A stretch of 64,000 nucleotides of DNA from Schmidtea polychroa (lineage: Eukaryota): contig CM097885.1 of assembly GCA_044892525.1 (NCBI GenBank), positions 7,938,001 through 8,002,000 on the forward strand, read 5' to 3'. The position numbers and the translations under genes are program-made. Positions 9,954 through 48,698 of the stretch are shown here, one piece after another (position 1 is the first letter of the stretch; each line of letters begins with the position of its first letter). The notes under the pieces are model-generated. The model searched no databases and was not told the origin of the DNA. It worked only from the letters and a program-made list of their open reading frames with translations.

Positions 9954-10325
9954 GTTTTCCTGGAGAACCGCAAATCTTGAATTTGTCAGTTTTAAGCAGT
10001 AAAGTCTTTGAAGACAAGGAGACCTTAAATATGGTTTGCCGGGTATCTCCTGTTGGGTCCCCAATTCCGGAAATCCGAATCTATTGGGATTTCAATTCGA
10101 TTTCTTTAAAAAGATTTCGAAATTTCAAGTTAGACAACTCAAACGGCAATAAGATGGAAATCAAGTCTCAAAGAATTACTATAGATTCGTTCAAAGACGA
10201 ACTCAGTGGAAATATTTTTGACTTGCGTCTTTCAAAATGGCATCATGCGGCAAATATAACGTGTTTAATTAAACAACTTTTACTGAAAAATAACTTTTTT
10301 TCTACTGTCAGAATTCACGTTAAAC
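9954..10325 (+). CDS. Exon of nephrin-like Ig gene (Ig domain)
   Basis: Bounded by ttag| and |gtaagt; 372 nt, phase 1-1. Reads FPGEPQI...NMVCRVSPVGSPIPEI.IYW...HHAANITCLI. Confidence 0.85.
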
Positions 10326-29307: not shown

Positions 29308-31143
29308 GTAAGGACCGTAAATTATTATTTATTAATTTCACTATTAATGTTAATTCTCAACAATTTTAACCCTCTAATTGTACCAGAATATCATTTAAAT
29401 AAATTAAAGCAGTTCTTCATTATATTTTTGGGCTTTACTTAGGTATGATTTCGCAATTTCTTTATGATCATTACCGAATTTCTTCAGAGTAACATATTCT
29501 TGTTTTACTTTTGAATTCATTACCTTTATTACCTTCCTTGATTACGTCGTAGGACAAATGTTTCATATCACTTTGAACTGATGACTTGTAAAATGTTTGA
29601 CCAATCAATCCTTCGGAATCTCGGTAGCTGAATGTTTCCTTGATCATCTGCAATGATTTCAATATTTATGCAATTACTAATAAATCTATAAGTATAATCG
29701 TGTTGATTGAAGTTGGTTAGTGCCATTGATGACAACTAAACTGTGGAAATATATTGCAAAATAAGATGTCCTTTAATTTTTAATTATTTTTTAGTTAATC
29801 AACTCAAAGTTTGAAATGTTTACTGTGAAACAACTGTTAATATAATTTATAAAATTTAACAAGCCATAAATAGAAAATTCTTAAGAATATATTTCATTAA
29901 AAAATGAAAAATTAATTAATTTTCAAATATCATCAAAATTATAATTTTTAAAACCAAACGTAATTAAAATTAATTAAATTTAATAATTAACAAAATTCAA
30001 CTTATAATTAATTTTCTTTATTTTCAATTTAATGAAAAATTTTTTCCCTATTTAACGCAAAATATTTTCTTAATAAAAATAAATAACTTATTTTTAATCT
30101 CCAAATGTTAGAATTGACTTAAAAACCGAAATTTTATTATAATTTTATATTATCTTTAGTAATACAGAAATGCAAATTTGCAAGATTTGAATTTTATTAA
30201 AAATGATTTGTATTTGTTTTAAATATTATTATTGAAGGTTACCCGAACGGTAGTGCAACGCGGGAAATGTACCGGGCCTAAATTTATAATAAGTAAGGAG
30301 ATAGAAACAGTAGTGTGGTTATATACCCAACCAAAACAGCCCCCCCAACAAAAACATGCCTCCAAATCACTTAAGCTATTAGAAAAACAACCTAAAACTT
30401 ATACTTTTATAGTATTTTAACCCTATATTTTGAAAACAACCACCCTTAATGACTCTAACTGTTTTAATCTTTAAAGCCTCAAACTCAAAAGCTTCAAACT
30501 AAAAAGAGAATAGAAAAGAAAATGGCATTATGAAAAAGTTAGAGGGCTATTTGATCTTTATCAGATTATTGATTTTAAATTATATAAATTAAAAAATAAA
30601 TGAAAAATAGTAAAACTGCTCTGAGGGGACAGTGGTATTTTTTTTTTTTTCACTGTCCCCTCAACAGTTTTTTTTGATCCGGATCATTTTTTTTATTTAT
30701 CAACCTCTTTCGTTTATCGAATCTCTTCCAATATACAAGCTGGCCAGACTCATACATCAGAATCAATCCGATAATAGCAGCACACCTTATTATTCGCTTC
30801 TCGCTCGAATACGATTTCATCGGCGTTTTAAGTGTGCTGCTCGAAAGTACAAATGAATTCGAAAGCGAATTCGAAAGAGGTCCGAAAACAACTGAGAAAT
30901 AAATGTTCACATTAAAGAATCGATCCGGGGGTGTTCGAAAGACAGGTGGCGATAATTACCGGTTCGCCACCATCACCCGTTTCAATATTTTTTTTTTCAT
31001 ATTTATGTTTAAAAAATAATTAATTAATAAAAAAAAAAAATAAAATAAAATAAATAAAATAAAATATACAAGTACTTTATAAATATAAGATACCCACACT
31101 ATTTTCAATATTATTTTCAAATTTTTAATATTATTTTATGTTG

Positions 31144-31227
31144 AAAAAAAACTAACCTCAGATGTGATTTGAACCACTATCCATTTGAACCACTGTGCCA
31201 GTCTATTCCCACTGCGCCATCAAAGTT
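31144..31227 (-). ncRNA. Putative Pol III tRNA-like ncRNA unit, left TIR outer copy (type B)
   Basis: Minus strand reads AACTTTGA-TGGCGCAGTGG (A box)...AGTGGTTCAAAT twice (B boxes)...GAGGTTAG-T8. Confidence 0.6.
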
Positions 31228-31376
31228 TGAATTTTTGTCATTTTTTTAATTTTTAATTTATAAAAAAATAAAATAAAATAAAATAAATAAAATAAAATAT
31301 ACAAGTACTTTATAAATATAAGATACCCACACTATTTTCAATATTATTTTCAAATTTTTAATATTATTTTATGTTG

Positions 31377-31460
31377 AAAAAAAAACTAACCTCAGATGTG
31401 ATTTGAACCGCTAGCATTTTGAACCACTGTGTCAGTCTAGCCCACTGCGCCATCAAGGTT
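31377..31460 (-). ncRNA. Putative Pol III tRNA-like ncRNA unit, left TIR inner copy (type A)
   Basis: Minus strand reads AACCTTGA-TGGCGCAGTGG...GGTTCAAAAT...GGTTCAAATC...GAGGTTAG-T9. Confidence 0.6.
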
Positions 31461-31479
31461 TGGATTTTTTGTCATTTTT

Positions 31480-31701
31480 TTAAATAATCGATTCAAGTTC
31501 TTTTATTCTTTCCTGTAATTGTTTTATTTTATCTAATCTTTTCTCAGCTACTTCTACTGCATTCATGTAAAAATGTCGATACTTTTCATTCTCTACCACC
31601 AACTCTTTAATGTATTCTAATGGTTCTTCTTCTCTTCTTTTTATTCTCTTAAGTTTAACTTCATTCAATTCATTTCTCATTCTTTCAATAAAGTCAATCA
31701 T
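31480..31701 (-). CDS. Polinton small coiled-coil protein (73 aa), unknown function
   Basis: AAAATG start context, as in the other element genes; E/K/R-rich heptad pattern; divergent from the major capsid gene; stop codon at the TIR boundary. Confidence 0.6.
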   Translation of the reverse strand: MIDFIERMRNELNEVKLKRIKRREEEPLEYIKELVVENEKYRHFYMNAVEVAEKRLDKIKQLQERIKELESII

Positions 31702-31787
31702 TTTTATAAATTATTTTTTTATTGAATTCCCTTTTATTTTTATTTTTATTTTTCAACTTTTATTTTTATCAACTTTTATATATAAAA

Positions 31788-33080
31788 ATGAATAATATAA
31801 ATCTTAAAATTCAAGAAAAAAATAAATTAAATCTTGATTATAATAAAGAATTTACTTATGAAATTAAAAAAAATGATATTTTAAAAATCTCGCCAACTTC
31901 AGGATCTATTGCAAACTTAAATCGTAGGGGTGATATAGTTTTTCAATCTCTTCAAACATCAAACCCAATAGATATTTGTAATGCCAAATTATATTACAAA
32001 GTAGAATTAGAAATTGAAGCAAACAAAGATATAACCCTAGAAAATAATTTCTTTCCAAATTTATTCTCCAACATGAGATTAAAACTAGGATCATCAGAAA
32101 TTGAAACTGTTTTGCATCCGGGAGTATATTCTACAATGTTAAATTTTATTTTGACTGGTTGTGATTATAAAAACGAATATGGTGAATTAACAGGTTGGAT
32201 TCCTGATGTTAATAAAGGGGATTTAGATAAAGATGGTTTAGATGTAAACCATGGTTACCATAAAAGAGCTGAACTTTATAAATCTAAAAAATTTGAAGGT
32301 TATTTTGAATTAAAACACTTGTTTGGATTCCTTCAAAACTATAATCGTATACTTCATAATGTTTTTATAGAATTCATCTGTAATAGAGTAGAAGGTGATA
32401 AAAGATTGTTCTATGGAGCTGTAGATACAAAAGCTAAATTAAAATTATCAACACTTGAATTACATATACCTGAATGGACATTAAACCCACATTCTGAGAT
32501 TAAACTCCTTGAAAGATTAAATTCCAACAAGTCTATAAATGTAAATTATTTAAATAGAATCTGTAGTGAATTTAGTATGACAGAGGGTTCAACATATTCT
32601 ATAAAGGTAGCAAATTTAGCATACCGACCAAGATATATCTTGATTGGATTCAAAGAAGTAGATTCATCTTTCCAAAAAAATAACAATCTATTTATTCAAA
32701 AGATTGGAGATGATAATTTAAAAACAATCCAAATTCAATTAAATAGTTCTTATTATCCAATAAATAGAATGGAATTTAATATTGAAAATAATGAAAACAT
32801 ATTCCCATATCTAAATTATATTGAAACATGTTATGATTTCAAAGTTGAACCGCAATTAAGTTTAGAAGATTTCAAAAATTTATATTCTATATTTTGTATA
32901 AATGTATCAGACCAAGATGATCGATTAGCCATAAATTATGTTGATGTTACACTTCATGTAACAAAGGATTCTAATTTTAAAGCTAAAGTATATACATTAA
33001 TATTAGAAGAAAAGAAAATAGAAATGAAATTATATGGTGGAAAGATTTCAATTATTGAAAATGTTAGGGGAGATTCTTGA
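31788..33080 (+). CDS. Major capsid protein (double jelly-roll, Polinton PY/hexon-like), ~430 aa
   Basis: Start at AAAAATG (31788). Motifs NNFFPNLFSNMRLKLG..EIE, RPRYILIGF, IQLNSSYYP and FKNLYSIFCINVS; size and context fit. Confidence 0.85.
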   Translation: MNNINLKIQEKNKLNLDYNKEFTYEIKKNDILKISPTSGSIANLNRRGDIVFQSLQTSNPIDICNAKLYYKVELEIEANKDITLENNFFPNLFSNMRLKLGSSEIETVLHPGVYSTMLNFILTGCDYKNEYGELTGWIPDVNKGDLDKDGLDVNHGYHKRAELYKSKKFEGYFELKHLFGFLQNYNRILHNVFIEFICNRVEGDKRLFYGAVDTKAKLKLSTLELHIPEWTLNPHSEIKLLERLNSNKSINVNYLNRICSEFSMTEGSTYSIKVANLAYRPRYILIGFKEVDSSFQKNNNLFIQKIGDDNLKTIQIQLNSSYYPINRMEFNIENNENIFPYLNYIETCYDFKVEPQLSLEDFKNLYSIFCINVSDQDDRLAINYVDVTLHVTKDSNFKAKVYTLILEEKKIEMKLYGGKISIIENVRGDS

Positions 33081-33109
33081 TATAATCCCTGATATTTTAA
33101 CATTTTAAA

Positions 33110-34522
33110 ATGTCTTTAAATAAACCCTATTGGAGATGTGAAACTTGTAATTGTCAAGTTACAAGACATCATAAAGCAAGTCATCTTAAAACTAAAAAAC
33201 ATACAGTAGGTGACCTAATTCCACGAGCTGGAGGCGATTTGCAATCTTCAAAAACAACATCTTCAATATTAAAACCTTTTACTACAGAAAAATATCCAGG
33301 TGAAAGACATTTATTTAAACACAACTATACTGGACCAGGAACACGTCTAGATATTAGATTAGATGAAAATAATAATCCCAAACAAGGAGAAGAACCAATA
33401 AATAGAATTGATCAAGCAGCTTTAAAACATGACATTGCATACAATTCAACAAATCTTAGAGATAGACATGTTGCAGATGTGAATTTAATACATGATTTAA
33501 ATAGTATCCAAAATCCATCAACCCAAGAAAAGATTCAAAGAGCTCTAGTTAAATTAGCAATGAAAGATAAGATTTTCATAGGCTTAGGACACAGTCCGAT
33601 CACCATGGGTGCAAGACTTCCTAGGAAAGCAAAAGATGTTGCTTATAAAAAGATTATCGAACAAGCAGAGATTGAAAGATCCCTCGAGAGTACAGCCAAG
33701 ACTAGTTTACAAACCCCAACAGAATCAGAAATAAAATATGCAAAGGAATTACACCATGAATTTAGAAAAAATAAAAAATATTTAAACGTTCAAGTACATG
33801 AAAAAGATCAAACATGGTCTGCAGATTTAGTCTTTATGCCCAAATCATCAGACCCTGAAAAATATAAAATAATTTTAACTGTAATAGATTTATATACAAG
33901 ATTTGCTTTTGCAAGATGTTTAGAAAATAAAACAGGATATTCTATTACAGAAGCATTTGAAAATATATTTGAAGAAAATCAAAGAATCCCAAAATATTTA
34001 TGGTGTGATAAAGGAACAGAATTTTATAACAAAGTTTTTACAAAGTTTTTAAATGAAAATGATATTAAATTATATTCAACAGAAAACGAAGGAAAAGCAG
34101 TCGTAGTTGAAAGATTAAATAGAACATTAAAAAATAAAATGTGGAAATATTTTACTGCTATTGGAAAACAAAAATGGAACAATGAATTGTTACAAAAGAT
34201 TGTAAATGAATATAATAATGATGTACATAGTTCTATAAAATTAACACCTTTAAATGCTTCCATGAAGCCTGAAACCATTAAAGTGGTAAATATTGAAAAT
34301 GATGTTATTGAAAAACCAAAGTTTAAAATTGGTGACTGAGTAAGAATATTTAAATATAAAAATAAATTTGAAAAAGGATTCACAGCAAAATGGACAAATG
34401 AAATTTTTATTATAAATAAAATAAATTATACAACTCCAATAACATATAGCATCATTGATTTAAATAATGAAAAAATATTAGGTAGATTTTATAATAATGA
34501 GTTACAGAAAACAGATTTTTAA
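33110..34522 (+). CDS. ZnF - parvovirus-VP1u-like PLA2 - retroviral-type (RVE) integrase fusion, with in-frame TGA at 34337-34339
   Basis: ZnF CETC..H..TKKH; PLA2 NYTGPGT...NRIDQAALKHDIAY; DDE triad WSADL/WCDKGTEF/VERLNRTLK. After the TGA the frame continues VRIFK...FEKGF...WTNEIF...PITY...GRFYNNELQK to TAA at 34522. Confidence 0.9.
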
Positions 34523-34533
34523 GTCGACAAGCC

Positions 34534-35340
34534 CTAAAACAAACTTTTCCATATTTCAGCTTCTTCTCTATCCAAATAAATATAATTATATTTTTCTTTC
34601 CAATGATTATCAACAAACATATCAAACATATTCTTATCAGGTTCAACATTTGAAAATAAATCATTATAAATCATATTCTTATCACGGCGATCTAATTTAA
34701 AAAATATAAAACAATTGGAATTATTTCTTATTGAATTTTTATCTAAAGCATAATATGTTTGAGATATATAAATAACATTACAATTATTATGTCGACCTCG
34801 TGTAAAGTAACTCTTTTGAATCTCTTGATTTTTCATATTAACAACATCATCAAATATAACTAGATTCTTTTTATCTTTAGGAAGTAAGTCACAATGTAAA
34901 ACATCTTCAGGTTTATTAGAGAATAAAACTTGAATTGCCTCCTGCCCTTCTTCACAAATATAATCATTTTTATTACTAATATCTGATTCTAAAATCTTTT
35001 CCTTATACCAATCAACCATATCACAAGGTTGAAAAACTTCTTCAGGACACCTATGTTGATTTTTAAAAATATCAATTATTGCTTTTTTAGTTAATTTATT
35101 TTCAAATCCACATTTCAAAAGTTGTAATTCTGGTTGATTTATGGTTGTAGAATAAAAGATTAAATTATTATAATCTAAAAAATCATCTTCAAGTAACATT
35201 CTCAAAACAAGTACATTCTTTCCACATCCAGAAGAACCAACAATTAATAATCTAAAATTATCAGGAAATACTTTATTATTAAATTTACTCTTATGTCTAT
35301 TTAAAATTGGTTTCCAAATTATTGGACTTCGTACATCCAT
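34534..35340 (-). CDS. FtsK/A32-like DNA packaging ATPase (~268 aa)
   Basis: Walker A GSSGCGK(N), Walker B LVIFDD, and FTRGRHNNCNVIYISQ; AAAATG start at 35340. Confidence 0.9.
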   Translation of the reverse strand: MDVRSPIIWKPILNRHKSKFNNKVFPDNFRLLIVGSSGCGKNVLVLRMLLEDDFLDYNNLIFYSTTINQPELQLLKCGFENKLTKKAIIDIFKNQHRCPEEVFQPCDMVDWYKEKILESDISNKNDYICEEGQEAIQVLFSNKPEDVLHCDLLPKDKKNLVIFDDVVNMKNQEIQKSYFTRGRHNNCNVIYISQTYYALDKNSIRNNSNCFIFFKLDRRDKNMIYNDLFSNVEPDKNMFDMFVDNHWKEKYNYIYLDREEAEIWKSLF

Positions 35341-35355
35341 TTTGTTTATTATAAA

Positions 35356-35934
35356 ATGACAACTGAAGAATCTTTGCAAGAATTAATAAATTCAAATAAA
35401 AATAAATCAGTAGTAATTGATGGTAAAAAATATTTTATTGGAAAACATGTAAAAGAACAAGTTAGAGCGAAGCTCCACGAAGCTAAAGAAGGTGGCATTC
35501 TTCCATTAGCTGCTTTAATACCTGCAATCATTGCTGGTTTATCAGGTGCTGCTGGAATAGCTGGAGGAATTGCAACTACAGTTCAAAAAGCTAAAGAATC
35601 TCAAAAGACAGACCTAGAAAAAGAAAAACTACAAACTGAAATCGATTCAATGAAGAAGGTAGGGCAAGCTAAAGGGGGAGTGTCCGTTGGAAAGGGTCTC
35701 TATCTTAATCCATATGAGGGGAGTCGGCAAAAGTCTCAGGGCAAAGGTTTCTATCTTGATCCTTATAAAGGTAGAGGTTTAAATGATTTTTTAAAAAATC
35801 AAATTTCTACATCTGAATCTTTATCTTCAAAAGATAAAGAAGATTTAAAACAAATATGTAAATCTTTAAAGAATGGATGCCTTTGTAAAACTAAAAATGG
35901 TAAAGGATTATACTTGAAGCCCTTCGAACTATGA
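35356..35934 (+). CDS. Putative virion core/membrane-active protein with an adenovirus pX-like hydrophobic segment
   Basis: GGILPLAALIPAIIAGLSGAAGIAGGIA resembles the adenovirus pX C-terminus (GGILPLLIPLIAAAIGA); three GKG(L/F)YL.P repeats. Confidence 0.7.
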   Translation: MTTEESLQELINSNKNKSVVIDGKKYFIGKHVKEQVRAKLHEAKEGGILPLAALIPAIIAGLSGAAGIAGGIATTVQKAKESQKTDLEKEKLQTEIDSMKKVGQAKGGVSVGKGLYLNPYEGSRQKSQGKGFYLDPYKGRGLNDFLKNQISTSESLSSKDKEDLKQICKSLKNGCLCKTKNGKGLYLKPFEL

Positions 35935-35956
35935 TACCATTTTTGATACCATTAAA

Positions 35957-36813
35957 ATGGTATATGAAGAAAGATTAGCACTTTTAAAAAAATTACAATC
36001 AGAACAAGATAAATATAATAAAAAAGATACAACTCAACATGCTGAATCTATAATATTAAATGAGGTAATAACACAACAACAGGGGCCAACAATTAAAGCT
36101 ATAAAAGAGTTGGAAGATTTCAATGAGCAAGCAAAATTTAAAGAGTTAGAAGATAAAAAACAAAAAATAAAAGAACTAGAGTGGCAGGATAAAGAAAAGG
36201 AATCCAGTGAAAACCATCCTGAAAGAAATCAAAGAAAACGCAGAAGAATTTCTAATGTGGAAGAAGAAGAAATGTTTTTAAAAACAAAAGCTCTTAAAGT
36301 TGATCCTAAAATTAGAGATGATTTACCTCCTTCAATTAGACCCACATTTAATACTAATACTGAAGGATATCAAATAATAACAATTAATAAACAAAACTTT
36401 ACTTTATATTCAAATTCAGAAAATAAATCACGTATTCATTCACAAAATGTTTATAATAATGAATATTTAGACTTTGAATTTACAGATGATTTTTATAGAT
36501 TACTTTGTGGATATTCTTCAGATGATGTTGAAGAAATTAAAAAATATTTAAATTTAATAAGATTAATAAGAGCTAGTTCTAAAGCAAAATATATTCAAGA
36601 TTTAAAGAATTATTTAAATAAAAATGAAAGGGATTAATTAGTGAAGGTGGTAAACCAAATCCCATCAATCTTTTTATTGAATTAAGAAAACTATTAGCTG
36701 CAAGGAAAGCAGGACATAATAATTTAGATTCTGATATTTTAAAGATTTCTAAAGATTTGTTAAAACAAGGAATAATTTCAAAAGATAAATTTAATAAGTA
36801 TACGAAGTTATAA
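35957..36813 (+). CDS. Polinton conserved hypothetical protein, frameshifted near 36626
   Basis: The 226-aa ORF stops at 36637. The -1 frame (36628-36813, no ATG) reads KGL...NPINLFIELRKLLAARKAGHNN...DLLKQGII, a C-terminal motif I recall from Polinton proteins. Confidence 0.65.
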
Positions 36814-36835
36814 ATACGAAGTTTCAAAATACAAA

Positions 36836-37300
36836 ATGACTCCTTCAATATTAGATTTTTTAAAAACATTTGGAATAAATGCAAAAACAAATTTTGATTT
36901 AAAAGATTATGCAAATTATTTAAATTTAAAAATTAAAATATTAATGAATGATGAATTATCAAGTCTGGAGAGTCCCCTGAATATAATAATCAATTATCAA
37001 AATTCAAATGAAAAAGGATCTCATTGGGTTTGTATATATAAGAAATCTATCTACTTTGATTCTTTTGGGATTAAACCTACTAAAGAAGTTGAAGATTATC
37101 TCTTGAGGGGTTCTCCGATTGATTCCCCAAATGGTTATACTTTTAACTCTTTACAAGTTCAACCTTTGAATACTAAAATATGTGGTATTTTAAGTTTATA
37201 TGTTTTGTATAGATTGAATAAGGGAGAGGGAAAGGGGCATACGCAGGATTTTGAATCTATAATTCAAGAAATTTATAATGATCTAGAATCTCTACTATAA
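36836..37300 (+). CDS. Adenain-like (clan CE) maturation cysteine protease
   Basis: GSHWV, YFDSFG and QVQ.....CG supply the His-Asp-Gln-Cys catalytic set. Confidence 0.92.
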   Translation: MTPSILDFLKTFGINAKTNFDLKDYANYLNLKIKILMNDELSSLESPLNIIINYQNSNEKGSHWVCIYKKSIYFDSFGIKPTKEVEDYLLRGSPIDSPNGYTFNSLQVQPLNTKICGILSLYVLYRLNKGEGKGHTQDFESIIQEIYNDLESLL

Positions 37301-37348
37301 GGATTTTTACTATAAGAATTTTTACTATATGAATTTACTACTAAAGAA

Positions 37349-38113
37349 ATGGAGCTTCACAACCCTCCGGAAGATAATTTAAAAAAAATGGTAAACATAA
37401 TGTCAGATAAATATTCAAGAACTTTATCTATAAATTCAAAAGAATCAGAGTTTACTATAAACTTTCAAGATTCAATTAAATTAGATCAAAATTTAAATTA
37501 TGAATTGGGGCTATTATGGTTTTGTGCTTATAATACTATTTTTAATATAACTAAAGATAATAATAAATTTACTATTCAAACTCGTGATGGGCATAAACCA
37601 GAAATTATAACAATAGAACCTGGGGCATATGAGATAAAAGATTTAAATGATATACTTTCTAAAAAAACAAATGAAGGTATTAAAATTAAAATGGATATAC
37701 CAACTTCAAAATGTGTAATGACTTTGAAGAATATAAAAATTAGTTTTTTAGATAATTGTTTCTTTCACACAGTTTTAGGATTTAAACCTATGGATATAAC
37801 AATAAAAGAAGATAAAATAATAACATCAGAACATATTATAAAAATAATAAATACAAACACAATAAATATTCATTGTGATTGTATAACAGGTTCTTATAAT
37901 AATGGTAAACAAACAAATGTTTTATATTCCTTTCCCTCAAACACAGTTCCTATGGGATATAAAATAGTTGAAAGAATGAATCCTCCAAATTATTTACCTT
38001 TATGTAGAAAATATATAATGGATATTAATTTTAAAATTCTTAATCAAGAAGGAGAATTGATTGATTTTAATGGAGAAGAGATTTCAATGTATTTACATTT
38101 GAAACAGGTTTGA
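37349..38113 (+). CDS. Minor capsid protein (single jelly-roll penton, Polinton PX)
   Basis: FNIT..NNKF, PGAYEI.DLN, IHCDCITGSY.NG, GYKIVE...P.YLP, NQEGELIDFNGE. The true start could be a downstream Met. Confidence 0.85.
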   Translation: MELHNPPEDNLKKMVNIMSDKYSRTLSINSKESEFTINFQDSIKLDQNLNYELGLLWFCAYNTIFNITKDNNKFTIQTRDGHKPEIITIEPGAYEIKDLNDILSKKTNEGIKIKMDIPTSKCVMTLKNIKISFLDNCFFHTVLGFKPMDITIKEDKIITSEHIIKIINTNTINIHCDCITGSYNNGKQTNVLYSFPSNTVPMGYKIVERMNPPNYLPLCRKYIMDINFKILNQEGELIDFNGEEISMYLHLKQV

Positions 38114-38137
38114 AGATTCATTTTAAATTATTAATAA

Positions 38138-39148
38138 ATGAGTTCTTATATTCCATGTAATAGAGGTGGTGGAACAATAAAAACAGGGTTTAATACAGAA
38201 GAAATATTAACTTTAACAGAAAATAAATATATTAATGAAAGAGGTGATTCAATGAAGGGTGATTTAATTTTAAATGGACACAAGATAAAAGAATTATCTT
38301 TTCCAACTGATGAAGCTGATGCGGTTAATAAAAAATATGTAGATGGTGTTAAAAAATATACTGATTTAACAACAACAAGAATTGAAAGTTCATTAACAAC
38401 AAAAATTGATTCAATGGAATCAAAGCTTAATAATATCGAACAACGATTTAATGATAAATTTGACAAGTTACAAAGTCTGTTAACTGAACAAGTTGTAAAG
38501 TTAAATACTGCTATATTAAATTCTAAAGATAAACAAATTATGAATACTAAATTTAATACAATATATAAAATAATAAATGAGATGATTACATCATTTAATA
38601 AAAGAATTTCAAATTTAGAGTCTCATACAACACACATTAACACCACACATAGTATTAGAAAAAGAGCTGCTGAATTAGAACAGAATAAAACATTATTACC
38701 CCATACATATAAACATTTTATAGAACCAATTTTAATAACAACAAACAGTAAAGAATGGGGTGTTTTTATGGTTGTAAAAATTATTGATCCTTATTTCTTT
38801 TTGTTTGATGATGATAATGAAAGAATGAAATGGTTTGTGAAATGTGATTATAATAGTAAGCTTGAAAAGGGTGATGTTATAATGACTAGTTATGATTTAC
38901 CACACGGAGATTGGTATGTTAATACTCATTCACATGGACTACATAAAGTTAAAAGTAAGAATATTCATTTTTCTAGTTCACTTGTACAATATATAGATTT
39001 AATATTTTATGAAAAAAAGGTTGATGTTGATGAAGTTCGTAAAGCATTGAGAGAATTGTATAAAGATATCCTCTCAACAAGAGTTTCTTTTGATATCCGA
39101 GTATTGGTGCCAGATGGTGCTCAGAAGAATAAAGTCTTATTTTTTTAA
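38138..39148 (+). CDS. Putative fibre/spike-like protein (336 aa)
   Basis: KYINERGDSMKGDLILNGHKI...PTDEADAVNKKYVD tail-fibre-type motif, long coiled coil, then a distinct beta-rich C-terminal domain; directly follows the penton gene. Confidence 0.55.
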   Translation: MSSYIPCNRGGGTIKTGFNTEEILTLTENKYINERGDSMKGDLILNGHKIKELSFPTDEADAVNKKYVDGVKKYTDLTTTRIESSLTTKIDSMESKLNNIEQRFNDKFDKLQSLLTEQVVKLNTAILNSKDKQIMNTKFNTIYKIINEMITSFNKRISNLESHTTHINTTHSIRKRAAELEQNKTLLPHTYKHFIEPILITTNSKEWGVFMVVKIIDPYFFLFDDDNERMKWFVKCDYNSKLEKGDVIMTSYDLPHGDWYVNTHSHGLHKVKSKNIHFSSSLVQYIDLIFYEKKVDVDEVRKALRELYKDILSTRVSFDIRVLVPDGAQKNKVLFF

Positions 39149-39156
39149 TTATTAAA

Positions 39157-39753
39157 ATGGAAGAAGTAAGAGAAGAAAAAATTTACCCAGAATTGAGATC
39201 ATCAGGATATTATTCTTCCAAGGCCTCGGCTCCCACAGAACTTGAAATTATGAGAGTAAAAGAATTTAAATCAGAAACCTTACATTTACAAGATTTATTA
39301 AAGCATTATAAAAAAATTAAAAATAGATGGAATAAAGGGAATACAGTTTTAAAAGTTATAGGTTATTCTTTAGGATTTGCATCTGCAATATTAACAGTTA
39401 TTTTACCCATAACTTTACCAGTTGTTACTCTTGCACCTGTAATACTTGGAAGTATTTCTGTGGCTGATGGTTTCTTAACTGAAATAGTTTCATTATCTTA
39501 TACTTCTAAAAAGAAAAGTTTATATAGAGAAGTTTGTTTATCAATAGAATTAGGAATCTCTAAATTATTTTTATTTCAATTAAAAGCTTTGGAAGATGGA
39601 ATCCTGACAGACGAAGAAATAATGAAATCAAATCAAATAATACAAGATATAAAGAATGAGGTTATAAGATTAAAAAGGGAGGGCATGGTGGCTAATGTTA
39701 TAAGTAATAAAAAAACATCTCGAGAAAAATGGTTAAAGAATTCTTACTTATAA
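39157..39753 (+). CDS. Polinton membrane protein (198 aa)
   Basis: N-terminal IYPEL..ASAP; central hydrophobic hairpin VIGYSLGFASAILTVILPITLPVVTLAPVILGSI; KALEDGILTDEE. Confidence 0.7.
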   Translation: MEEVREEKIYPELRSSGYYSSKASAPTELEIMRVKEFKSETLHLQDLLKHYKKIKNRWNKGNTVLKVIGYSLGFASAILTVILPITLPVVTLAPVILGSISVADGFLTEIVSLSYTSKKKSLYREVCLSIELGISKLFLFQLKALEDGILTDEEIMKSNQIIQDIKNEVIRLKREGMVANVISNKKTSREKWLKNSYL

Positions 39754-39843
39754 AATGGGTGTATTTTTAAAAAAGTAGATCAGGTTGCTATAGTTAAATT
39801 AATTGTCGACATTTTATTATTAAAAAATTAAATATCGTTGGTT

Positions 39844-42800
39844 TCAGTTATGGTTGAAAGCCAACCTATGAATCATTAATTTATGATCTTTAAATTCTTT
39901 ATCACTTAGACCTTTTATATATTCAGGATCAGTATTAAAATATTTAAGTTCTAAACATATAGGATTAAAAACTTGAGAATATAAAGGTTTCTCGATTTCT
40001 CTCTCGGGATAAATAATTTCAACATTATAAATATCAAGATCAGTAATCTTTGTATCATATAACTTATTCAACTTTTCTAGATTTTTTATTATAGGGATTA
40101 AATTATTTCCAATAGGTAGAGCTGTCTTTAAATCACTTAGTATGAATCTCTTATCATCATAATTTGATAATGATACTTTTTGAGATTCTATCAAGTGAAT
40201 ATCATGGTTTTCACTTTTAAGTTGATGTATTTCATCAATTTTATCTTTATGATTTGGATTCAATGTATCTATATAATCTTGATGAGAAAGATTCTTTGCC
40301 ACCACTCTCTGTATTCCTTTACATCTGTTATCCTTTACAGGTTTTTCTTCTTTAGGAAATATAGGATATCTATGTGTAATGGTTTCTTCTGTTTCTGGAG
40401 TTTTAAATATAAATGATCTAGTTATAAATTCAGGGTTTCTAAATGTTTCGTATGAATATTGTTTAGCACGAATAAATATTCCATTTTCTATAGGAGTAAA
40501 AGGTTTTTCATCTTTAAACGAAAATAGTTCTCCAGATGAATTTATTAAATTTGAAAGTATAGGATTTTCTTTCATATCTTTTTGTAAATCATGAGTTCTT
40601 ATTGTTAAAAACATTGAATCTGTATCCATTGCATGCATTGATATATTTGCTCCGTATATAGGTTGTAAGATGTTATAATATGTTTCATACATTTGTAATT
40701 TTGAAAGTTCTAAAATTGTAAACCCTATAAATATTGGTTTGTTATATGTTTTCTCATAATTTTTTAATTCTACTGCAGTAAGATTTTCAGAAAATACTTG
40801 TGCGTTTTTAAATGTAGGCTTTCCTAGCATGCGATTATAACGCTTAATATCTTTGGTAGTATTTGTTAGGAGTTCAATATGAGTATATTTATCAACATTC
40901 TCCATTGTTTTCCCAAAGACTGAATTGTTTAAAATTTTATAATTATTATCTTTAAAAAGATTACCTTCTCTTTTTGCAATGTTTCGGCACCTAATGTTCT
41001 CCTCGATAAAAGCTTTCATGAATGGAGCTTGTTTAAATCTTATGACACTATGAACTTTTTTTAATATCATTCCTCGTGAAAGATAAAATTGGAGGAGTCT
41101 ATAGTGACAAAGATAAAACCTTCGATCTGTTTGATCACAAAGAAGTTTCATTGTTGGAGGTTTATCTTGTGAGATTTGCCATTCAGAAAGTTCGTTGATA
41201 TCAATCTTTCTTCTTATGGGAGCTAAAGGAAAATATCTTGTTCCTGATTTTATATCATCTGGATAGTCGAGGTCGCATTCTATAAAGTAACCTATTGGAG
41301 AATCTTTCGATGTTGAAAGTATTTCTTTCATAAGGTCATCTGTTGGGTTCTCTATTTCAGTGAAATCACCCATTGGTAAAAATTGAGTCATAATTCCTGA
41401 ATATAAAGCTGTTGCATCTATATAAAGTATAAATATAGGATTTTTCATTGTTTCTAATAATTCTTTTAATTCCTCATTGTTAATTTTCATATATGGATCA
41501 TCAGGGTGTTTAGATAGTCTTCGGCTAGTAGTTATTGCATTTCTAGCTTTTATTTCTCTATTCCCCATTACTGAAGAGACTCCTCCTCTAATGTTTGTTT
41601 TAATTTGGTTAAACATATCGAGGTTAGTTAAAAGATCTATAATTTTATCACCTTCTTCTATATTTGAAGTCCAAATGGTATATAACATAGTATCCCAAGC
41701 TAAAGAGGGTGCAGTTATATAATTATAAGGTTTAAGAACAAAAGATTTTGTAAATTCTTCAAAGCAATCTGCTAGAATATAAACATCCAAGGATAAATAC
41801 ATACTTGTATATTCTCCTAAAGTTTTACACTTGAATAATTCCCACATTTTATTTGCTCGAGAATATTCTTGATTTGTAATATGATTTTTTTGAAGTTGTG
41901 AATAGAAATCTTCTTGGCTAGGAAGACTTGTTTCATTATATCTTTCAAACGAGTCAACATAGTCATAAGGATATATTCCTTTTGCTAAACATGTAGGATA
42001 TTCTTCTAGAGGAATATTATTTTTTTCCAAGAATTCTCGAGTGATTTTAAAATTTTCTGGTTTCATTGTTTTTGCTACTGCATCTAAAGACATTTGGAGA
42101 AAGTTTAACGAGTCTATAAATTTTAATTTTCCATATTCAATTGATTTATATTTTTCCTTTGTTAAGCCGATAACTTTGAAAGAGTTTTTAGCATTTTCTG
42201 CGAGGTGTTTAATAAATAGATGTATGTCATATCCAAAAAGATTATGAAATATAGCAGGTATAAATTTAGGAGTATGGCAATTAAGATTGCAATTTTTATG
42301 AGCTGCTCCTCGATAATTATTTTCCTTTATTAAATGATCATGATCTATAACTTTTTCATCAGGAAGAATATTCTGTTTACACATCCAACAGTTGGAAGTA
42401 TTTTCATATTCTTGTTGTTGTTGATTAGAAATATTTTGAGGATAGTTTGTTTTTAATATTTTAAATATTTCATGTTCTAGATCATTTATATTTTTAGTAA
42501 AATGATTCAAGACTTCTTCAGGGGTACCTCCTAGAATTGAATATTCTCTAGATTCTATGAGTTCAGGATAATTACTTTTAAATAATAATTTATAAGCAGA
42601 TGGTAATTGTTTAGTTTTTTTAACACTATTAGGTTTATTTCTTTTTCTTAGAAAGGCTTTCATCCTCTCTGGTTTCATCTTCTCTCCTGAGGAGTTCCAG
42701 GAATCCATGAGTTTATTTTTTTCTATTATTTTTAAATATTGTTTAACCAAATCTTGTTTACGATTTATAGATTCAAAGTCCCCATAAAGCACTCCTACTG

Positions 42801-44163
42801 TTTGTAGTAAATTTGAAAAGTTTTTAAAATACATCTTGGGATTATTAGGCATTTTAATTAAAGCTGGATCATCTTTTTCACAAAATCTTGTATGTTTAAT
42901 CATAGAGTTTTTAGTTGTTGAATAATGAAGACATCTTTTACATGTTCCTCCTCCACTAGTTGGATTCTCTGGAGATGTAAAAGCTTGAAAGTTTTTTATT
43001 AAAACATAATGTTGATTATTTTCTTGTTCCAAGATTAAAAGATATATCTCGTTGTCCTGTGCTCCGTTATCCTTGGTTCCACTATCTGAAATATAAATTG
43101 GAATAATTTCTTTCCCTATAACATGTTCATAAATATTAAGTTTAAGATTATTTAATTTTTCAAATTCTGGAATGTCTTCTAGTTTCATTGGGTGTTTGAA
43201 TCCTTTGGGAAATATTAATTCATTTTCATATTGTTTGTATTTTGAAACTCTTTGGGGATTTGTTGCTTGAGGATGTAAATGTGCAAGTATTGACCAGATG
43301 AAACATTTGTTATCATTATTCTGTACATTTATAACATTTTTAGATTTAAAGGGTGTAGGAATATAAGATTTAGGATTGGGTGGTAATCCTCTCCAATAAT
43401 CAATCACTAAAGTTTGGAAAGAGTTGAATACTAAGTTTGAATCTCCTAATTCATTTTCTACTTCCTCTTGTTTTGCTTCTGCTGCTTTAATTATTTCTTT
43501 GATGGTTTTATCAAATCCTTTAATTGAAAATAAATATTTAAAAGGTATTCCAATTTCAACATCTAAGGGTGTTGTCTTTTCTTCTGCTCCTCGCCAGTAT
43601 TTTGCTTTGATTATAATTTTATATTTTATAACATTATACCTTGTCGGTTTATAATTTTTTAAAGCTTCAGTGAAAGAATTTTTAATATTTTTTTTATTTT
43701 TATTTATATATTCTCCAGGAGTTGCAGGCCCATTAATTTTTAATTGAAATTCATCTATATGATTAAAATTATACCAGTTATATTTTTCTCTTTCAACATG
43801 ATCAGGTTCTCCTTCTGAATGACATTCCTCATCGTCAGAATTTTGTTTTTTATTTTTACATTCTTTTATATGTTCTAAATAATAGAAATTTAGTTTTGTT
43901 GAAAAGTTACAATGAGGACATGTAAATATTTCTCTATTTTTCCCGATACAATTTTCAAAATGTTTATTATATCCAGAATGTAGAAATCTTCCTTTACATT
44001 TAAGACAAAGTTTTGAATTTGTATCATTAAGATTATTTTCTTTTAATAAATGAGCTTTCGATTTTAAGTGAGAAATTAATCCAGTTTTATTTTTAAAAAC
44101 TTTATTGCAAATATTACAATTCATTTTTAGAAAAAAATTTTTTATTGGATACCCTGTTTTCAT
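39844..44163 (-). CDS. polB: Protein-primed family B DNA polymerase (1439 aa) with N-terminal Zn fingers, OTU-like domain and EndoVII-like insert
   Basis: Exonuclease motifs YGDFES, FHNLFGYD, KGIYPYDY and YLSLDV; polymerase motifs YIDATALY, KILNNSVFGK, MDTDS and KGI; OTU-like DNKCF...HY; insert CWMC...DHDH...RGAAH..CN. ORF uninterrupted. Confidence 0.95.
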   Translation of the reverse strand: MKTGYPIKNFFLKMNCNICNKVFKNKTGLISHLKSKAHLLKENNLNDTNSKLCLKCKGRFLHSGYNKHFENCIGKNREIFTCPHCNFSTKLNFYYLEHIKECKNKKQNSDDEECHSEGEPDHVEREKYNWYNFNHIDEFQLKINGPATPGEYINKNKKNIKNSFTEALKNYKPTRYNVIKYKIIIKAKYWRGAEEKTTPLDVEIGIPFKYLFSIKGFDKTIKEIIKAAEAKQEEVENELGDSNLVFNSFQTLVIDYWRGLPPNPKSYIPTPFKSKNVINVQNNDNKCFIWSILAHLHPQATNPQRVSKYKQYENELIFPKGFKHPMKLEDIPEFEKLNNLKLNIYEHVIGKEIIPIYISDSGTKDNGAQDNEIYLLILEQENNQHYVLIKNFQAFTSPENPTSGGGTCKRCLHYSTTKNSMIKHTRFCEKDDPALIKMPNNPKMYFKNFSNLLQTVGVLYGDFESINRKQDLVKQYLKIIEKNKLMDSWNSSGEKMKPERMKAFLRKRNKPNSVKKTKQLPSAYKLLFKSNYPELIESREYSILGGTPEEVLNHFTKNINDLEHEIFKILKTNYPQNISNQQQQEYENTSNCWMCKQNILPDEKVIDHDHLIKENNYRGAAHKNCNLNCHTPKFIPAIFHNLFGYDIHLFIKHLAENAKNSFKVIGLTKEKYKSIEYGKLKFIDSLNFLQMSLDAVAKTMKPENFKITREFLEKNNIPLEEYPTCLAKGIYPYDYVDSFERYNETSLPSQEDFYSQLQKNHITNQEYSRANKMWELFKCKTLGEYTSMYLSLDVYILADCFEEFTKSFVLKPYNYITAPSLAWDTMLYTIWTSNIEEGDKIIDLLTNLDMFNQIKTNIRGGVSSVMGNREIKARNAITTSRRLSKHPDDPYMKINNEELKELLETMKNPIFILYIDATALYSGIMTQFLPMGDFTEIENPTDDLMKEILSTSKDSPIGYFIECDLDYPDDIKSGTRYFPLAPIRRKIDINELSEWQISQDKPPTMKLLCDQTDRRFYLCHYRLLQFYLSRGMILKKVHSVIRFKQAPFMKAFIEENIRCRNIAKREGNLFKDNNYKILNNSVFGKTMENVDKYTHIELLTNTTKDIKRYNRMLGKPTFKNAQVFSENLTAVELKNYEKTYNKPIFIGFTILELSKLQMYETYYNILQPIYGANISMHAMDTDSMFLTIRTHDLQKDMKENPILSNLINSSGELFSFKDEKPFTPIENGIFIRAKQYSYETFRNPEFITRSFIFKTPETEETITHRYPIFPKEEKPVKDNRCKGIQRVVAKNLSHQDYIDTLNPNHKDKIDEIHQLKSENHDIHLIESQKVSLSNYDDKRFILSDLKTALPIGNNLIPIIKNLEKLNKLYDTKITDLDIYNVEIIYPEREIEKPLYSQVFNPICLELKYFNTDPEYIKGLSDKEFKDHKLMIHRLAFNHN

Positions 44164-44230
44164 TTTATTTTTTAAGATTTATATTATTCATTTTTTATAA
44201 TAAAAATTTAAAAAAATGACAAAAAATCCA

Positions 44231-44314
44231 AACTTTGATGGCGCAGTGGGCTAGACTGACACAGTGGTTCAAAATGCTAGCGGTTCAAATCACATCTGAG
44301 GTTAGTTTTTTTTT
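44231..44314 (+). ncRNA. Putative Pol III tRNA-like ncRNA unit, right TIR inner copy (type A)
   Basis: A box TGGCGCAGTGG at 44239-44249; B box GGTTCAAATC at 44282-44291; T9 at 44306-44314; 5' and 3' ends complementary. Confidence 0.6.
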
Positions 44315-44463
44315 CAACATAAAATAATATTAAAAATTTGAAAATAATATTGAAAATAGTGTGGGTATCTTATATTTATAAAGTACTTGTATATTTTATT
44401 TTATTTATTTTATTTTATTTTATTTTTTTATAAATTAAAAATTAAAAAAATGACAAAAATTCA

Positions 44464-44547
44464 AACTTTGATGGCGCAGTGGGAATAGACTGGCACAGTG
44501 GTTCAAATGGATAGTGGTTCAAATCACATCTGAGGTTAGTTTTTTTT
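44464..44547 (+). ncRNA. Putative Pol III tRNA-like ncRNA unit, right TIR outer copy (type B)
   Basis: A box at 44472-44482; B box at 44516-44525; T8 at 44540-44547; 233 bp downstream of the type A copy. Confidence 0.6.
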
Positions 44548-45489
44548 CAACATAAAATAATATTAAAAATTTGAAAATAATATTGAAAATAGTGTGGGTA
44601 TCTTATATTTATAAAGTACTTGTATATTTTATTTTATTTATTTTATTTTATTTTTTTTTTTTATTAATTAATTATTTTTTAAACATAAATATGAAAAACA
44701 AATATTGAAACGGGTGATGGTGGCGAACCGGTAATTATCGCCACCTGTCTTTCGAACACCCCCGGATCGATTCTTTAATGTGCACATTTATTTCTCAGTT
44801 GTTTTCGGACCTCTTTCGGATTCGCTTTCGAATTCATTTGTACTTTCGAGCAGCACACTTAAAACGCCGATGAAATCGTATTCGAGCGAGAAGCGAATAA
44901 TAAGGTGTGCTGCTATTATCGGATTGATTCTGATGTATGAGTCTGGCCAGCTTGTATATTGGAAGAGATTCGATAAACGAAAGAGGTTGATAAATAAAAA
45001 AAATGATCCGGATCAAAAAAAACTGTTGAGGGGACAGTGAAAAAAAAAAAAAATACCACTGTCCCCTCAGAGCAGTTTTACTATTTTTCATTTATTTTTT
45101 AATTTATATAATTTAAAATCAATAATCTGATAAAGATCAAATAGCCCTCTAACTTTTTCATAATGCCATTTTCTTTTCTATTCTCTTTTTAGTTTGAAGC
45201 TTTTGAGTTTGAGGCTTTAAAGATTAAAACAGTTAGAGTCATTAAGGGTGGTTGTTTTCAAAATATAGGGTTAAAATACTATAAAAGTATAAGTTTTAGG
45301 TTGTTTTTCTAATAGCTTAAGTGATTTGGAGGCATGTTTTTGTTGGGGGGCTGTTTTGGTTGGGTATATAACCACACTACTAGAAACCGAGACAGATTTC
45401 AAGGTTTCTTTTTCAAAATATTTTATTTAATTAATGTAAATTATCCAGAGGTTGATAAAGATATGATTTATTTATAGCCAAATATTAAT

Positions 45490-47296: not shown

Positions 47297-47878
47297 AAAA
47301 AATTAAATTAAAAATTAAAAATAATAATATAAGATAATATAGAAAAATAGATAAAATATAATTTTAGAAGATCATTAGTATTTAAAAATCAAAATAGAAA
47401 CATTTTTTAAAATATTTAAATTGCGTATATAAATAGTTATTGGAAACTATATTTTATACATATTTTAAGATAGTATTTAATAAATTAGGTTTCTACGAGC
47501 TAATTATAGAAGCTTTAAAAATTTTTAAATTTTTCCTTGTGAGTCGTTTTGAATTTTAAAGGATATTTAATTAAAACATCTTTAGAAATTTTATATTCTT
47601 CAGAAAAAAGTTTATTATTATTATTGACCAATGAGAAGTAAAAAAAGGAAATAAAAGAGAAAATTAAGGAGCTTTTTAGAAAATAAAAGAAGCTAAAATC
47701 CATGAAATTGAAAAGGAATATCTTATATTTGAATTTTTTTCATTTGTATTAAATATATTATTCCTAGCAAAGGGCTTAAATTATCATTTAATTGTTTGTA
47801 ATCATCAATTTATACTATAATTATCTCACTTGAATAAAATAAACAGTACAAGCTTTGTGATACCCAGTGCAAATCCCA

Positions 47879-47920
47879 ATAGTAAACTAGTTTCAAGCTT
47901 TTGGCTCTCATCAGTACAAT
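47879..47920 (-). ncRNA. Minimal hammerhead ribozyme motif (GUU triplet)
   Basis: Minus strand reads GUA-CUGAUGA-GAGC CAAAA GCUU-GAAAC UA GUU-UAC. Confidence 0.65.
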
Positions 47921-48305
47921 GCAGGAGACGCGAAGATTTCTCTTCGCGCCAGGTAAGTATACAATATTGCTGATTCAACTCTATTGCATACTTTCCCCGG
48001 TACACTGGAAATCACATCATTTGCAAATTAGCTTGGTCACAAAAAAATCTGTAAACTTGTAAGCATGGCCTATGAAAAATCATAATCACCTCTGCGGACT
48101 AAAAAATTAGTCGATACACAGAAACTGTTTACAAGTGCATCCAATTACTTTTAGTATTTTTAACTTATAAAATAATGTTATAACATTTTTTGTCGGATGT
48201 CTCACTTGAAATCTTCATGTCTCCTGCATAGTACTGATGAGAGCCAAAAGCTCGAATATCTACTATTGGGATTTGCACTGGGTATCACAAAGCTTGTAAT
48301 GTTCA

Positions 48306-48372
<67 letters not shown>

Positions 48373-48547
48373 CACAGAAATTGTTTACAAGTGCATTCGA
48401 TTACTTTTTTTTGTGACTTTTTTTTCTGTGACCAAGCTATTTTGCAAGCGATGTGATTTCCAGTGTACCGGGGAAAGTATGCAATAGAGTTGAATCAGCA
48501 ATATTGTATACTTACTTGGCGCGAAGAGAAATCTTCGTGTCTCCTGC

Positions 48548-48589
48548 ATTGTACTGATGAGAGCCAAAAGCTCGAAACTAGTCTACTAT
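48548..48589 (+). ncRNA. Minimal type I hammerhead ribozyme motif (GUC triplet)
   Basis: GUA-CUGAUGA-GAGC CAAAA GCUC-GAAAC UA GUC-UAC; palindromic ACUAGU helix III. A degenerate third copy lies at 48228-48266. Confidence 0.8.
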
Positions 48590-48624
48590 TGGGATTTGCA
48601 CTGGGTATCACAAAGCTTGTACTG

Positions 48625-48698
<74 letters not shown>

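What the first reader, a model, noticed from the sequence alone, without database searches (positions are those of the whole stretch)
44231..44547. Polinton TIRs carry four tRNA-sized Pol III units: candidate VA-RNA-like ncRNA genes
Seen: each TIR has a 233-bp tandem duplication whose GC-rich core reads AACTTTGA TGGCGCAGTGG ... GGTTCAAATC ACATCTGAGGTTAG T8-9 (right 44231 and 44464 on +; left 31460 and 31227 on -). The A box fits TRGCNNARYGG exactly. Taking 44232 as base 1, the B-box TTC starts at base 53, as in a tRNA. ACTTTG pairs with TGAGGT in acceptor-stem register, and the left inner copy has C:G in place of one U:G pair. An oligo-T Pol III terminator follows ~75 nt from the start. The D, anticodon and T stems do not pair canonically, and a second GGTTCAAA B box occupies the anticodon arm, so this is not a decoding tRNA. 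A CAGT/ACTG hairpin is kept in both variants although its loop differs. Known: adenoviruses, relatives of Polintons, encode Pol III VA RNAs with A/B boxes and a terminal stem that antagonise PKR and RNAi. Inference: this element may make two small RNAs (types A and B) as silencing decoys or small-RNA precursors. I do not recall such genes being described for Polintons, but could not check the literature.
Basis: partly seen in the sequence, partly recalled or inferred. Interest (0 to 1): 0.9.

Follow-up and report, generated by a model that had tools for sequence, protein, structure and literature searches.

The report
tRNA-like promoter cassettes in Polinton ends
A young, very abundant virus-like transposon in an animal genome carries decayed tRNA-type promoter cassettes in both end repeats; the promoter signals are kept but the RNA fold is not, so they more likely act as DNA control elements than as adenovirus-style decoy RNAs, and a better decoy-RNA candidate lies just beside them.

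Summary
The four units exist as described, in the 1.18-kb TIRs of a complete 15,073-bp Polinton. A flank-only search finds 1,941 in the genome, and 52 of 52 sampled loci lie in Polinton ends, so this is not a free SINE.

Across copies the A box, terminal B box, their spacing and the T-run are kept. The proposed stems are not: at least 12 different 5' strands, no consistent covariation, folding z about 0. That argues against a VA-like RNA.

The units stand head-to-head with the pPolB start (66-69 bp, 17 of 17 ends). A sister subfamily has two more tRNA-like units 54-56 bp from the capsid start; the same cassette sits in the host rDNA spacer. An earlier scan note on this genome gave that lead, confirmed here.

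Best reading (0.5): TFIIIC/Pol III-bound DNA elements that insulate or damp the neighbouring promoters. No binding or transcript is shown.

A ~320-nt block 220 bp outward folds strongly on the outward strand only (z -4.0 against -1.1). It is the better non-coding RNA candidate, although one selection test on it was not significant. Ten paper searches found neither feature described for Polintons.

The parts
30309..45381 (.). Complete Polinton/Maverick element, 15,073 bp, AGTAGT termini, flanked by a 6-bp target-site duplication (30303-30308, 45382-45387)
30309..31485 (-). Left terminal inverted repeat
   Evidence: 99.4% identical to the right TIR
44206..45381 (+). Right terminal inverted repeat
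44232..44314 (+). Unit A, right TIR: A box 44239-44249, inner B-like box 44266-44273, terminal B box 44282-44291, T9 44306-44314
44465..44547 (+). Unit B, right TIR: A box 44472-44482, second A-like motif at 44491, two B boxes, T8 44540-44547
31377..31459 (-). Unit A, left TIR (inner copy)
31144..31226 (-). Unit B, left TIR (outer copy)
44164..44231 (-). 68-bp head-to-head spacer between the pPolB ATG and unit A; holds a TATA-like run (44191-44199 on the inward strand) and a remnant of the first capsid codons
   Evidence: promoter role inferred, weak in AT-rich DNA
39844..44163 (-). Protein-primed DNA polymerase B ORF (1,439 aa), divergent from unit A
31788..33080 (+). Major capsid protein ORF (double jelly roll), divergent from the left units
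31480..31701 (-). 73-aa ORF of unknown function that ends 20 bp before left unit A and separates it from the capsid start
   Evidence: no Pfam match over cut-off
44704..44761 (+). Hairpin-forming stretch just upstream of the structured block; its 5' edge resembles the host U6/U2 upstream element only weakly
   Evidence: inconclusive
44762..45090 (+). Structured block, candidate ~320-nt non-coding RNA: closing helix, multibranch core, 3' hairpin, then T4/T5
30600..30928 (-). Mirror copy of the structured block in the left TIR (approximate limits)

Best explanation
The units are decayed host tRNA-type Pol III cassettes that this Polinton family keeps as DNA elements. TFIIIC binds the A and B boxes and loads TFIIIB 10-45 bp upstream, on the short spacer in front of the pPolB (and in most copies the capsid) start, and Pol III probably makes a ~75-nt RNA that ends at the T-run. 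The useful product is the bound complex, not the RNA: a barrier against spreading host heterochromatin and incoming transcription at thousands of insertion sites, and/or a damper on the divergent Pol II promoter. Shown: the anatomy, the conservation pattern, the head-to-head spacing, and that a related cassette is shared with the host rDNA spacer. Inferred: factor binding, transcription, the chromatin effect, its direction (protecting or damping) and the direction of capture.
For: (1) Flank-only genome search: 1,941 units; in the first 100 listed, read by eye, the terminal B-box core is intact in 99 and the A box exact in 95, while the 7 bases before the A box show at least 12 haplotypes. (2) In 77 flank-defined units from held loci, common variants fall in 0 of 9 terminal B-box columns and only at the allowed purine of the A box, against 5 of 7, 10 of 34 and 7 of 13 columns in the 5', middle and 3' parts (most of these loci were first chosen by their boxes, so this count is biased). 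(3) No conserved fold; one, two or three B boxes occur. (4) A unit lies 66-69 bp from the pPolB ATG in 17 of 17 pPolB ends, and 37-104 bp from the capsid ATG in 25 of 34 capsid ends. (5) In 20 of those 25, unrelated-looking units D1 and D2 sit 54-56 bp from the capsid ATG, inward of the small ORF that displaces unit A/B. The same cassette lies in ~13-kb repeats interleaved with 5.8S genes, 93-94% identical, and D2 passes Rfam's tRNA cut-off (32.4 against 29 bits). This looks like a second capture of Pol III boxes at the same place. (6) Precedents: TFIIIC-bound B-box arrays in the fission-yeast inverted repeats IR-L/IR-R (PMC7474672, passages); Pol III complexes block or repress neighbouring Pol II transcription (PMC4228148, abstract).
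Against: No binding, chromatin or reporter data. A T8-9 run and a near-constant 74-76-nt length fit a real transcript and are not needed by a pure TFIIIC site. Two of 34 capsid ends (L057, L060) have no unit within 900 bp, and 7 of 34, including this window's left end, have it 294-367 bp away, so adjacency is not required; most loci were picked because they hold units. Copies are young (97-99% alike), so invariance partly reflects descent. Parts of the middle (the second A-like motif and inner B box) are also well kept. The link of units A/B/C to the rDNA-spacer units is weak: best z 3.2 (B-D2) among 24 comparisons, A scores best against host tRNA-Trp (z 2.1), C against nothing. A TATA-like run in 75% AT DNA is poor evidence of a promoter.
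Confidence: 0.5

Rival explanations
1. One reading: the units make functional ~75-nt RNAs that act as decoys of RNA silencing or as small-RNA precursors, like adenovirus VA RNA or the Pol III cassettes of BLV and foamy viruses.
For: Intact boxes, T8-9 and tRNA length. 6 of 7 acceptor-register pairs in the commonest types A and B, and one G-U to A-U change that keeps a pair. Contigs of run X1 (RNA only guessed) cover both units. Viral precedents (PMC7589676, PMC4378190, passages).
Against: Folding z about 0. Stem falls to 3-5 of 7 pairs in other subfamilies, 5' strand hypervariable, T stem broken in all 25 distinct A/B/C sequences. VA's defining apical stem and GGGU/ACCC central domain are absent and the unit is half the size. 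One X1 contig bridges the small ORF into unit A (L099:1170-1488), so the cover may come from a longer transcript.
Confidence: 0.15
2. The units serve mainly the structured block 220 bp downstream: they recruit Pol III factors or open chromatin for an abundant ~320-nt RNA, which is the real effector.
For: Unit and block occur together, unit first, in 60 of 65 ends scored; the two unit-less capsid ends also lack the block. The block folds on the outward strand only and ends in a hairpin plus T-run. Contigs from X1, X3 and X4 cover it. The host's U6 repeat also has a tRNA gene about 480 bp upstream.
Against: Co-occurrence is expected from linkage in a TIR. The spacer is full of T-runs, so read-through is unlikely. 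The block's own promoter is unidentified. It does not explain the D1/D2 insertion next to the capsid start, 700-1,200 bp from the block.
Confidence: 0.17
3. Passengers: tRNA pseudogenes picked up with host DNA and carried along because TIRs are copied as a block; no selected role.
For: Capture of host Pol III-related DNA by Polintons recurs in this genome (D1/D2; an earlier unchecked note on a 7SL fragment). Some ends lack units. Young copies inflate apparent conservation.
Against: Subfamily-level changes pile up on both sides of the boxes and avoid them. All units point outward at similar distances. A second cassette entered the same position and spread to several hundred dispersed copies.
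Confidence: 0.15
4. A host SINE inserted into the TIR.
For: tRNA-like head with A and B boxes; high copy number.
Against: 52 of 52 sampled loci lie in Polinton ends. No SINE body, tail or target duplication around the unit.
Confidence: 0.03

Closest known systems
tDNA/TFIIIC chromatin barriers and the B-box arrays of fission-yeast IR-L/IR-R (PMC7474672 passages; PMC4228148 abstract)
   Same: Several B boxes in a pair of inverted repeats that bracket a 15-20-kb domain; Pol III signals next to Pol II promoters.
   Different: Here the boxes come with an A box, tRNA spacing and a terminator, and travel with a mobile virus-like element; no binding is shown.
Adenovirus VA RNA I/II (PMC7589676 passages)
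   Same: Intragenic A and B boxes, oligo-T end, tandem genes, related virus lineage; a tRNA origin has been proposed for VA genes.
   Different: The units are about half the size, with no stable or conserved terminal stem, apical stem or GGGU/ACCC domain, and lie in the terminal repeats. The neighbouring block has VA-like double-stranded character but no canonical internal boxes.
MHV68 TMERs and the Pol III pre-miRNA cassettes of BLV and foamy viruses (PMC8223928, PMC4378190 passages)
   Same: Viral type 2 Pol III units, tRNA-like and clustered; TMERs also have multiplied A-box motifs.
   Different: No pre-miRNA hairpin within or directly after the unit; a T8-9 terminator follows the tRNA-sized part.
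Cassandra retrotransposons with 5S-derived Pol III promoters in their LTRs (recalled; paper not held)
   Same: A mobile element that carries a captured host Pol III promoter in both terminal repeats.
   Different: Type 1 (5S) promoter in a non-autonomous retroelement, against type 2 (tRNA) cassettes in an autonomous DNA-virus-like element.
7SK snRNA (PMC5499737 passages), for the neighbouring block only
   Same: About 320 nt, 5'-3' closing helix, three GAUC words, 3' hairpin before a U-run.
   Different: No Rfam 7SK match; the GAUC words are not in a 5' hairpin; promoter type unresolved. A resemblance of layout only.
Polinton/Maverick elements of animals ('adintoviruses', PLA2-bearing type; PMC8502044 passages)
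   Same: pPolB, rve integrase, double jelly-roll capsid, A32-type ATPase, PLA2 domain, long TIRs, 6-bp target duplication.
   Different: That paper's main text has no 'non-coding' passage and mentions tRNA genes only for non-animal relatives with other replicases.

Membership tests
Polinton/Maverick (host element) | pPolB plus rve integrase plus capsid and packaging ATPase | tested here: met
Polinton/Maverick (host element) | Long TIRs, AG-starting termini, 6-bp target duplication | tested here: met
Type 2 Pol III gene | A box and B box at workable spacing, oligo-T terminator | tested here: met
Type 2 Pol III gene | TFIIIC/Pol III occupancy and a discrete transcript | not testable with these tools
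   only contigs of guessed-RNA runs were served
Functional tRNA | Cloverleaf with D, anticodon and T stems | tested here: not met
Adenovirus VA RNA | Intragenic boxes A and B and a U-run end | tested here: met
   feature list from PMC7589676
Adenovirus VA RNA | Stable, conserved terminal stem, apical stem and central domain with GGGU/ACCC | tested here: not met
Adenovirus VA RNA | Binds and blocks PKR or Dicer | not testable with these tools
   no assay
TMER / Pol III pre-miRNA cassette | Pre-miRNA hairpin in or right after the unit | tested here: not met
   (no outward-strand 120-nt window over the units below z -1.7)
tRNA-derived SINE | Dispersed free copies with body, tail and own target duplications | tested here: not met
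   (52 of 52 in Polinton ends)
TFIIIC/tDNA barrier | Conserved B boxes at a domain edge | tested here: met
TFIIIC/tDNA barrier | TFIIIC binding and barrier activity | not testable with these tools
   needs ChIP and reporter assays
7SK snRNA (neighbouring block) | Match to the 7SK covariance model | tested here: not met
   the genome search was silent in its controls too
7SK snRNA (neighbouring block) | Type 3 promoter (PSE plus TATA) | tested here: inconclusive
   shares a 7-mer with host U6 at -59 but lacks a conserved C and has a variable A-run (p about 0.04)
7SK snRNA (neighbouring block) | Binds HEXIM, LARP7, MePCE | not testable with these tools
   no assay

The most novel reading that the evidence does not exclude
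This Polinton's TIR is a two-part Pol III module: tRNA-type cassettes taken from the host (twice, once from the rDNA spacer) that insulate and tune the viral promoters, and next to them a gene for an abundant ~320-nt double-stranded-rich RNA. That RNA would be a first Polinton counterpart of VA/EBER-type RNAs, acting as a Dicer/RNAi decoy or as a 7SK-like transcription regulator, and present in about 2,700 copies.
Probability: 0.3. Interest if true: 0.85.

Novelty: new variant of a known kind. Interest (0 to 1): 0.62.

Why it matters
How intact Polintons stay active at thousands of sites in an animal genome, and whether they have non-coding RNA genes like their adenovirus relatives, is open. 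This family gives a direct test: defined Pol III boxes next to the polymerase and capsid starts, natural variants with none, one, two or three units, an apparent second capture from the rDNA spacer, and a candidate structured RNA. It would also be a visible intermediate for the old idea that VA genes arose from host tRNA genes. The degenerate tRNA-like array in the host rDNA spacer is itself unusual.

Tried and rejected
RNA evidence. No RNA holder was listed; all 13 runs were contigs, RNA only guessed or unknown. I laid 4 of the 13 on L099:500-2300, a sister copy holding D1, D2, A, B and the block. X3, X4 and X11 give no cover of the units, and no run covers the stretch just 5' of the block; these holes prove nothing. 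Summed contig depth in X1 was about 3-17 on D1/D2, 140-350 on A/B, 305 on the capsid start and 5,000-10,000 on the block (X3: 8.5 and 62), but contig depth cannot rank parts, so I do not count it. The shared contig start near 44765 can be a graph branch at a variable site, so it is not a mapped 5' end. The block haplotype seen in most X1 depth and in X3 and X4 is in 1,000 of about 2,744 genomic copies; strain differences could explain the skew. X4 (another species label) shows the same letters as X1 and X3, so I do not take it as conservation between species.

Selection on the block. The alignment-based fold looked strong, but the less circular test on the window copy's own fold gave common variants in 13 of 184 paired against 11 of 110 unpaired columns (p 0.39), and 7 alternative pair types kept against 5 broken.

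Relatives. Viral contigs: none. Metagenome contigs: 32 capsid relatives at 24-52% identity, 0 of 32 with a unit by the strict scan; 18 have 300 bp or more upstream of the match and no terminus was recognised, so TIR conservation beyond this family is untested.

Ancestry. A tRNA-Trp origin for unit A (recalled resemblance) is not significant; only five host tRNA types were compared. Spacer homology with the rDNA subrepeat: none. ARAGORN at a lowered threshold is noisy. RNase P, MRP and 7SK searches of the genome gave no match, with uninformative controls. A protein-coding reading of the block: only short ORFs, frames shift between copies. The scan's earlier notes gave nothing by sequence or relatives.

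Full report
Setting. The window holds one complete Polinton at 30309-45381 with AGTAGT ends, a 6-bp target duplication and 1.18-kb TIRs. It encodes a double jelly-roll capsid, PLA2+integrase, an A32-type ATPase and pPolB. The host genome is 781 Mb and about 25% GC. An earlier scan note calls it flatworm-like; I did not test that.

Observation. They exceed chance: 4 hits against a shuffle mean of 0.14, and 1,629 genome matches against 0 for the reversed pattern. They are not tRNAs by ARAGORN or Rfam.

Not a SINE. I sampled 12 of the 41 BLAST hits (one is the window itself) and 40 places hand-picked from the first 100 pattern matches, favouring variant and single units. All 52 lie in Polinton ends, with one to three units per TIR.

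What is conserved. A search by flanks alone gives 1,941 units. In the first 100 listed, read by eye, the terminal B core is intact in 99 and the A box exact in 95, while the seven bases before the A box come in at least 12 forms. In 77 flank-defined units from held loci, common variants avoid the fixed box positions but hit 22 of 54 other columns (biased, since most loci were chosen by their boxes). In tRNA register the acceptor-like stem has 6 of 7 pairs in types A and B and 3-5 of 7 in others, and the T stem is broken throughout. Folding energies match shuffles. The B-box region collapses to one box or expands to three. So the promoter signals and length are kept and the fold is not. Against this reading: the T-run and fixed length do suggest a real transcript, and part of the middle is also well kept.

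Position. Units point outward, head-to-head with the terminal genes. Position 1 lies 66-69 bp from the pPolB ATG in 17 of 17 pPolB ends. At 34 capsid ends it lies 37-104 bp away in 25, is pushed to 294-367 bp by a 73-aa ORF in 7 (this window's left end among them), and is missing in 2. From established knowledge, TFIIIB assembled by TFIIIC would cover this spacer, which holds a TATA-like run; that overlap is inferred.

A second cassette. A sister subfamily has two more A-box/B-box/T-run units, D1 and D2, between the capsid start and the small ORF. D2 keeps the D and T arms and passes Rfam's tRNA cut-off; it resembles host tRNA-Cys in its 5' half. I tested it: that note's region matches the D2 area at 81%, the cassette lies in ~13-kb repeats on unplaced contigs interleaved with 5.8S genes about 5.7 kb away on the other strand, and the spacer has a longer array, D0-D1-D2-D2, 93-94% identical to the Polinton piece. 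The longer array suggests capture from rDNA, but the direction is inferred. A D1 flank has 1,198 genome matches and D2 2,785; from their spacing along the first chromosome, several hundred to over a thousand are dispersed. Whether A/B descend from the same spacer family is weakly supported (B-D2 z 3.2, A and C not).

The neighbouring block. Outward of unit B, 44762-45090 folds strongly on the outward strand only: z -4.0 against -1.1, -115.6 against -89.1 kcal/mol, with 13 against 3 G-U pairs. It has a 5'-3' closing helix, a multibranch core and a 3' hairpin before T4/T5. Among 50-52 distinct copies, two pairs change on both sides (44857/44906, 45031/45065) and four change between G-U and a Watson-Crick pair. 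But paired columns are not significantly less variable than unpaired ones once homopolymers are set aside (p 0.39), and 5 of 12 common alternative pair types break pairing: three at the edge of an A-run, one closing a loop, one an A-C mismatch inside a helix. Two-sided change in a perfect hairpin can also arise by DNA repair within inverted repeats. A 22-mer of the block has 2,744 genome matches spaced like TIR pairs. Contigs from three runs of three studies, RNA only guessed, cover the block; one of them (X1) also covers units A and B, and one X1 contig bridges the small ORF into unit A. Its promoter is unresolved: it shares a 7-mer with host U6 at the same offset but lacks part of the motif common to host U1, U2 and U6. 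No Rfam family matches.

Mechanism. Most likely (0.5) the units are TFIIIC/Pol III-bound DNA elements that shield or damp the adjacent Polinton promoters, with a by-product RNA. Rivals: helpers for the block RNA (0.17), functional small RNAs (0.15), passengers (0.15), SINE (0.03). These are not fully exclusive.

Known systems and novelty. VA RNA's defining fold (PMC7589676, passages) is not met. TMER, BLV and foamy-virus cassettes (PMC8223928 and PMC4378190, passages) need hairpins that are absent. The closest working analogy is the B-box-bearing inverted repeats of fission yeast (PMC7474672, passages) and the extra-transcriptional effects of Pol III complexes (PMC4228148, abstract only). 7SK features are from PMC5499737 (passages). 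Cassandra elements are recalled only. Ten full-text searches (listings and abstract starts seen) and passages of PMC8502044 and PMC6431247 showed no Pol III cassette or non-coding RNA described for Polinton TIRs. Subscription papers, repeat-library entries and supplements were not seen and may bear on this.

Verdict. Real and specific to the element; interpretation shifted from RNA decoy to DNA-level Pol III cassette, with a separate and better RNA candidate beside it. New variant of a known kind; interest 0.62.

Noticed in passing
window 44762-45090 (+) and about 30600-30928 (-): Strand-specific, strongly folding ~320-nt block in both TIRs, ending in a hairpin and T-run; candidate non-coding RNA, no Rfam match.
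   Followed up: yes
L108:1900-2700 (G000:C224, rDNA repeat); also L064: The host rDNA spacer holds an array of degenerate tRNA-like Pol III units (D0, D1, D2 x2-3, period about 240 bp) on the strand opposite the rRNA genes, about 5.7 kb upstream of 5.8S.
   Followed up: partly
L053 (G000:C4:55.02 Mb), L100 (G000:C1:269.25 Mb): Host tRNA genes lie in long single-type tandem arrays (851 tRNA-Trp and 998 tRNA-Cys pattern matches, periods 281-284 bp); U6, U2, a U1-like gene and 7SL are arrayed too.
   Followed up: no
L109:130-205: Each 793-bp U6 repeat carries a divergent tRNA-Lys(CTT) gene about 480 bp upstream of U6, recalling the tRNA-linked U6 genes of trypanosomes (recalled).
   Followed up: no
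window 31480-31701 (-): 73-aa ORF, outward-reading, present in only some subfamilies, no Pfam match over cut-off; covered by an X1 contig.
   Followed up: partly
window 44168-44191 (-): A remnant of the first capsid codons, ending in a stop, sits just upstream of the pPolB ATG, so both terminal genes seem to share one promoter design.
   Followed up: partly
L014, L057, L058, L065, L111 outer ends: Subfamilies share the inner TIR but swap the outer 250-400 bp; several carry a second, internal copy of their own terminal word facing the true end.
   Followed up: no
window 33110-34339 (+): PLA2-like domain and integrase are in one reading frame in this copy, and the frame stops soon after the integrase core.
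   Followed up: no
window 47837-48631: 211-bp inverted repeat, 96% complementary, 373 bp apart, outside the Polinton; possibly a small non-autonomous transposon.
   Followed up: no
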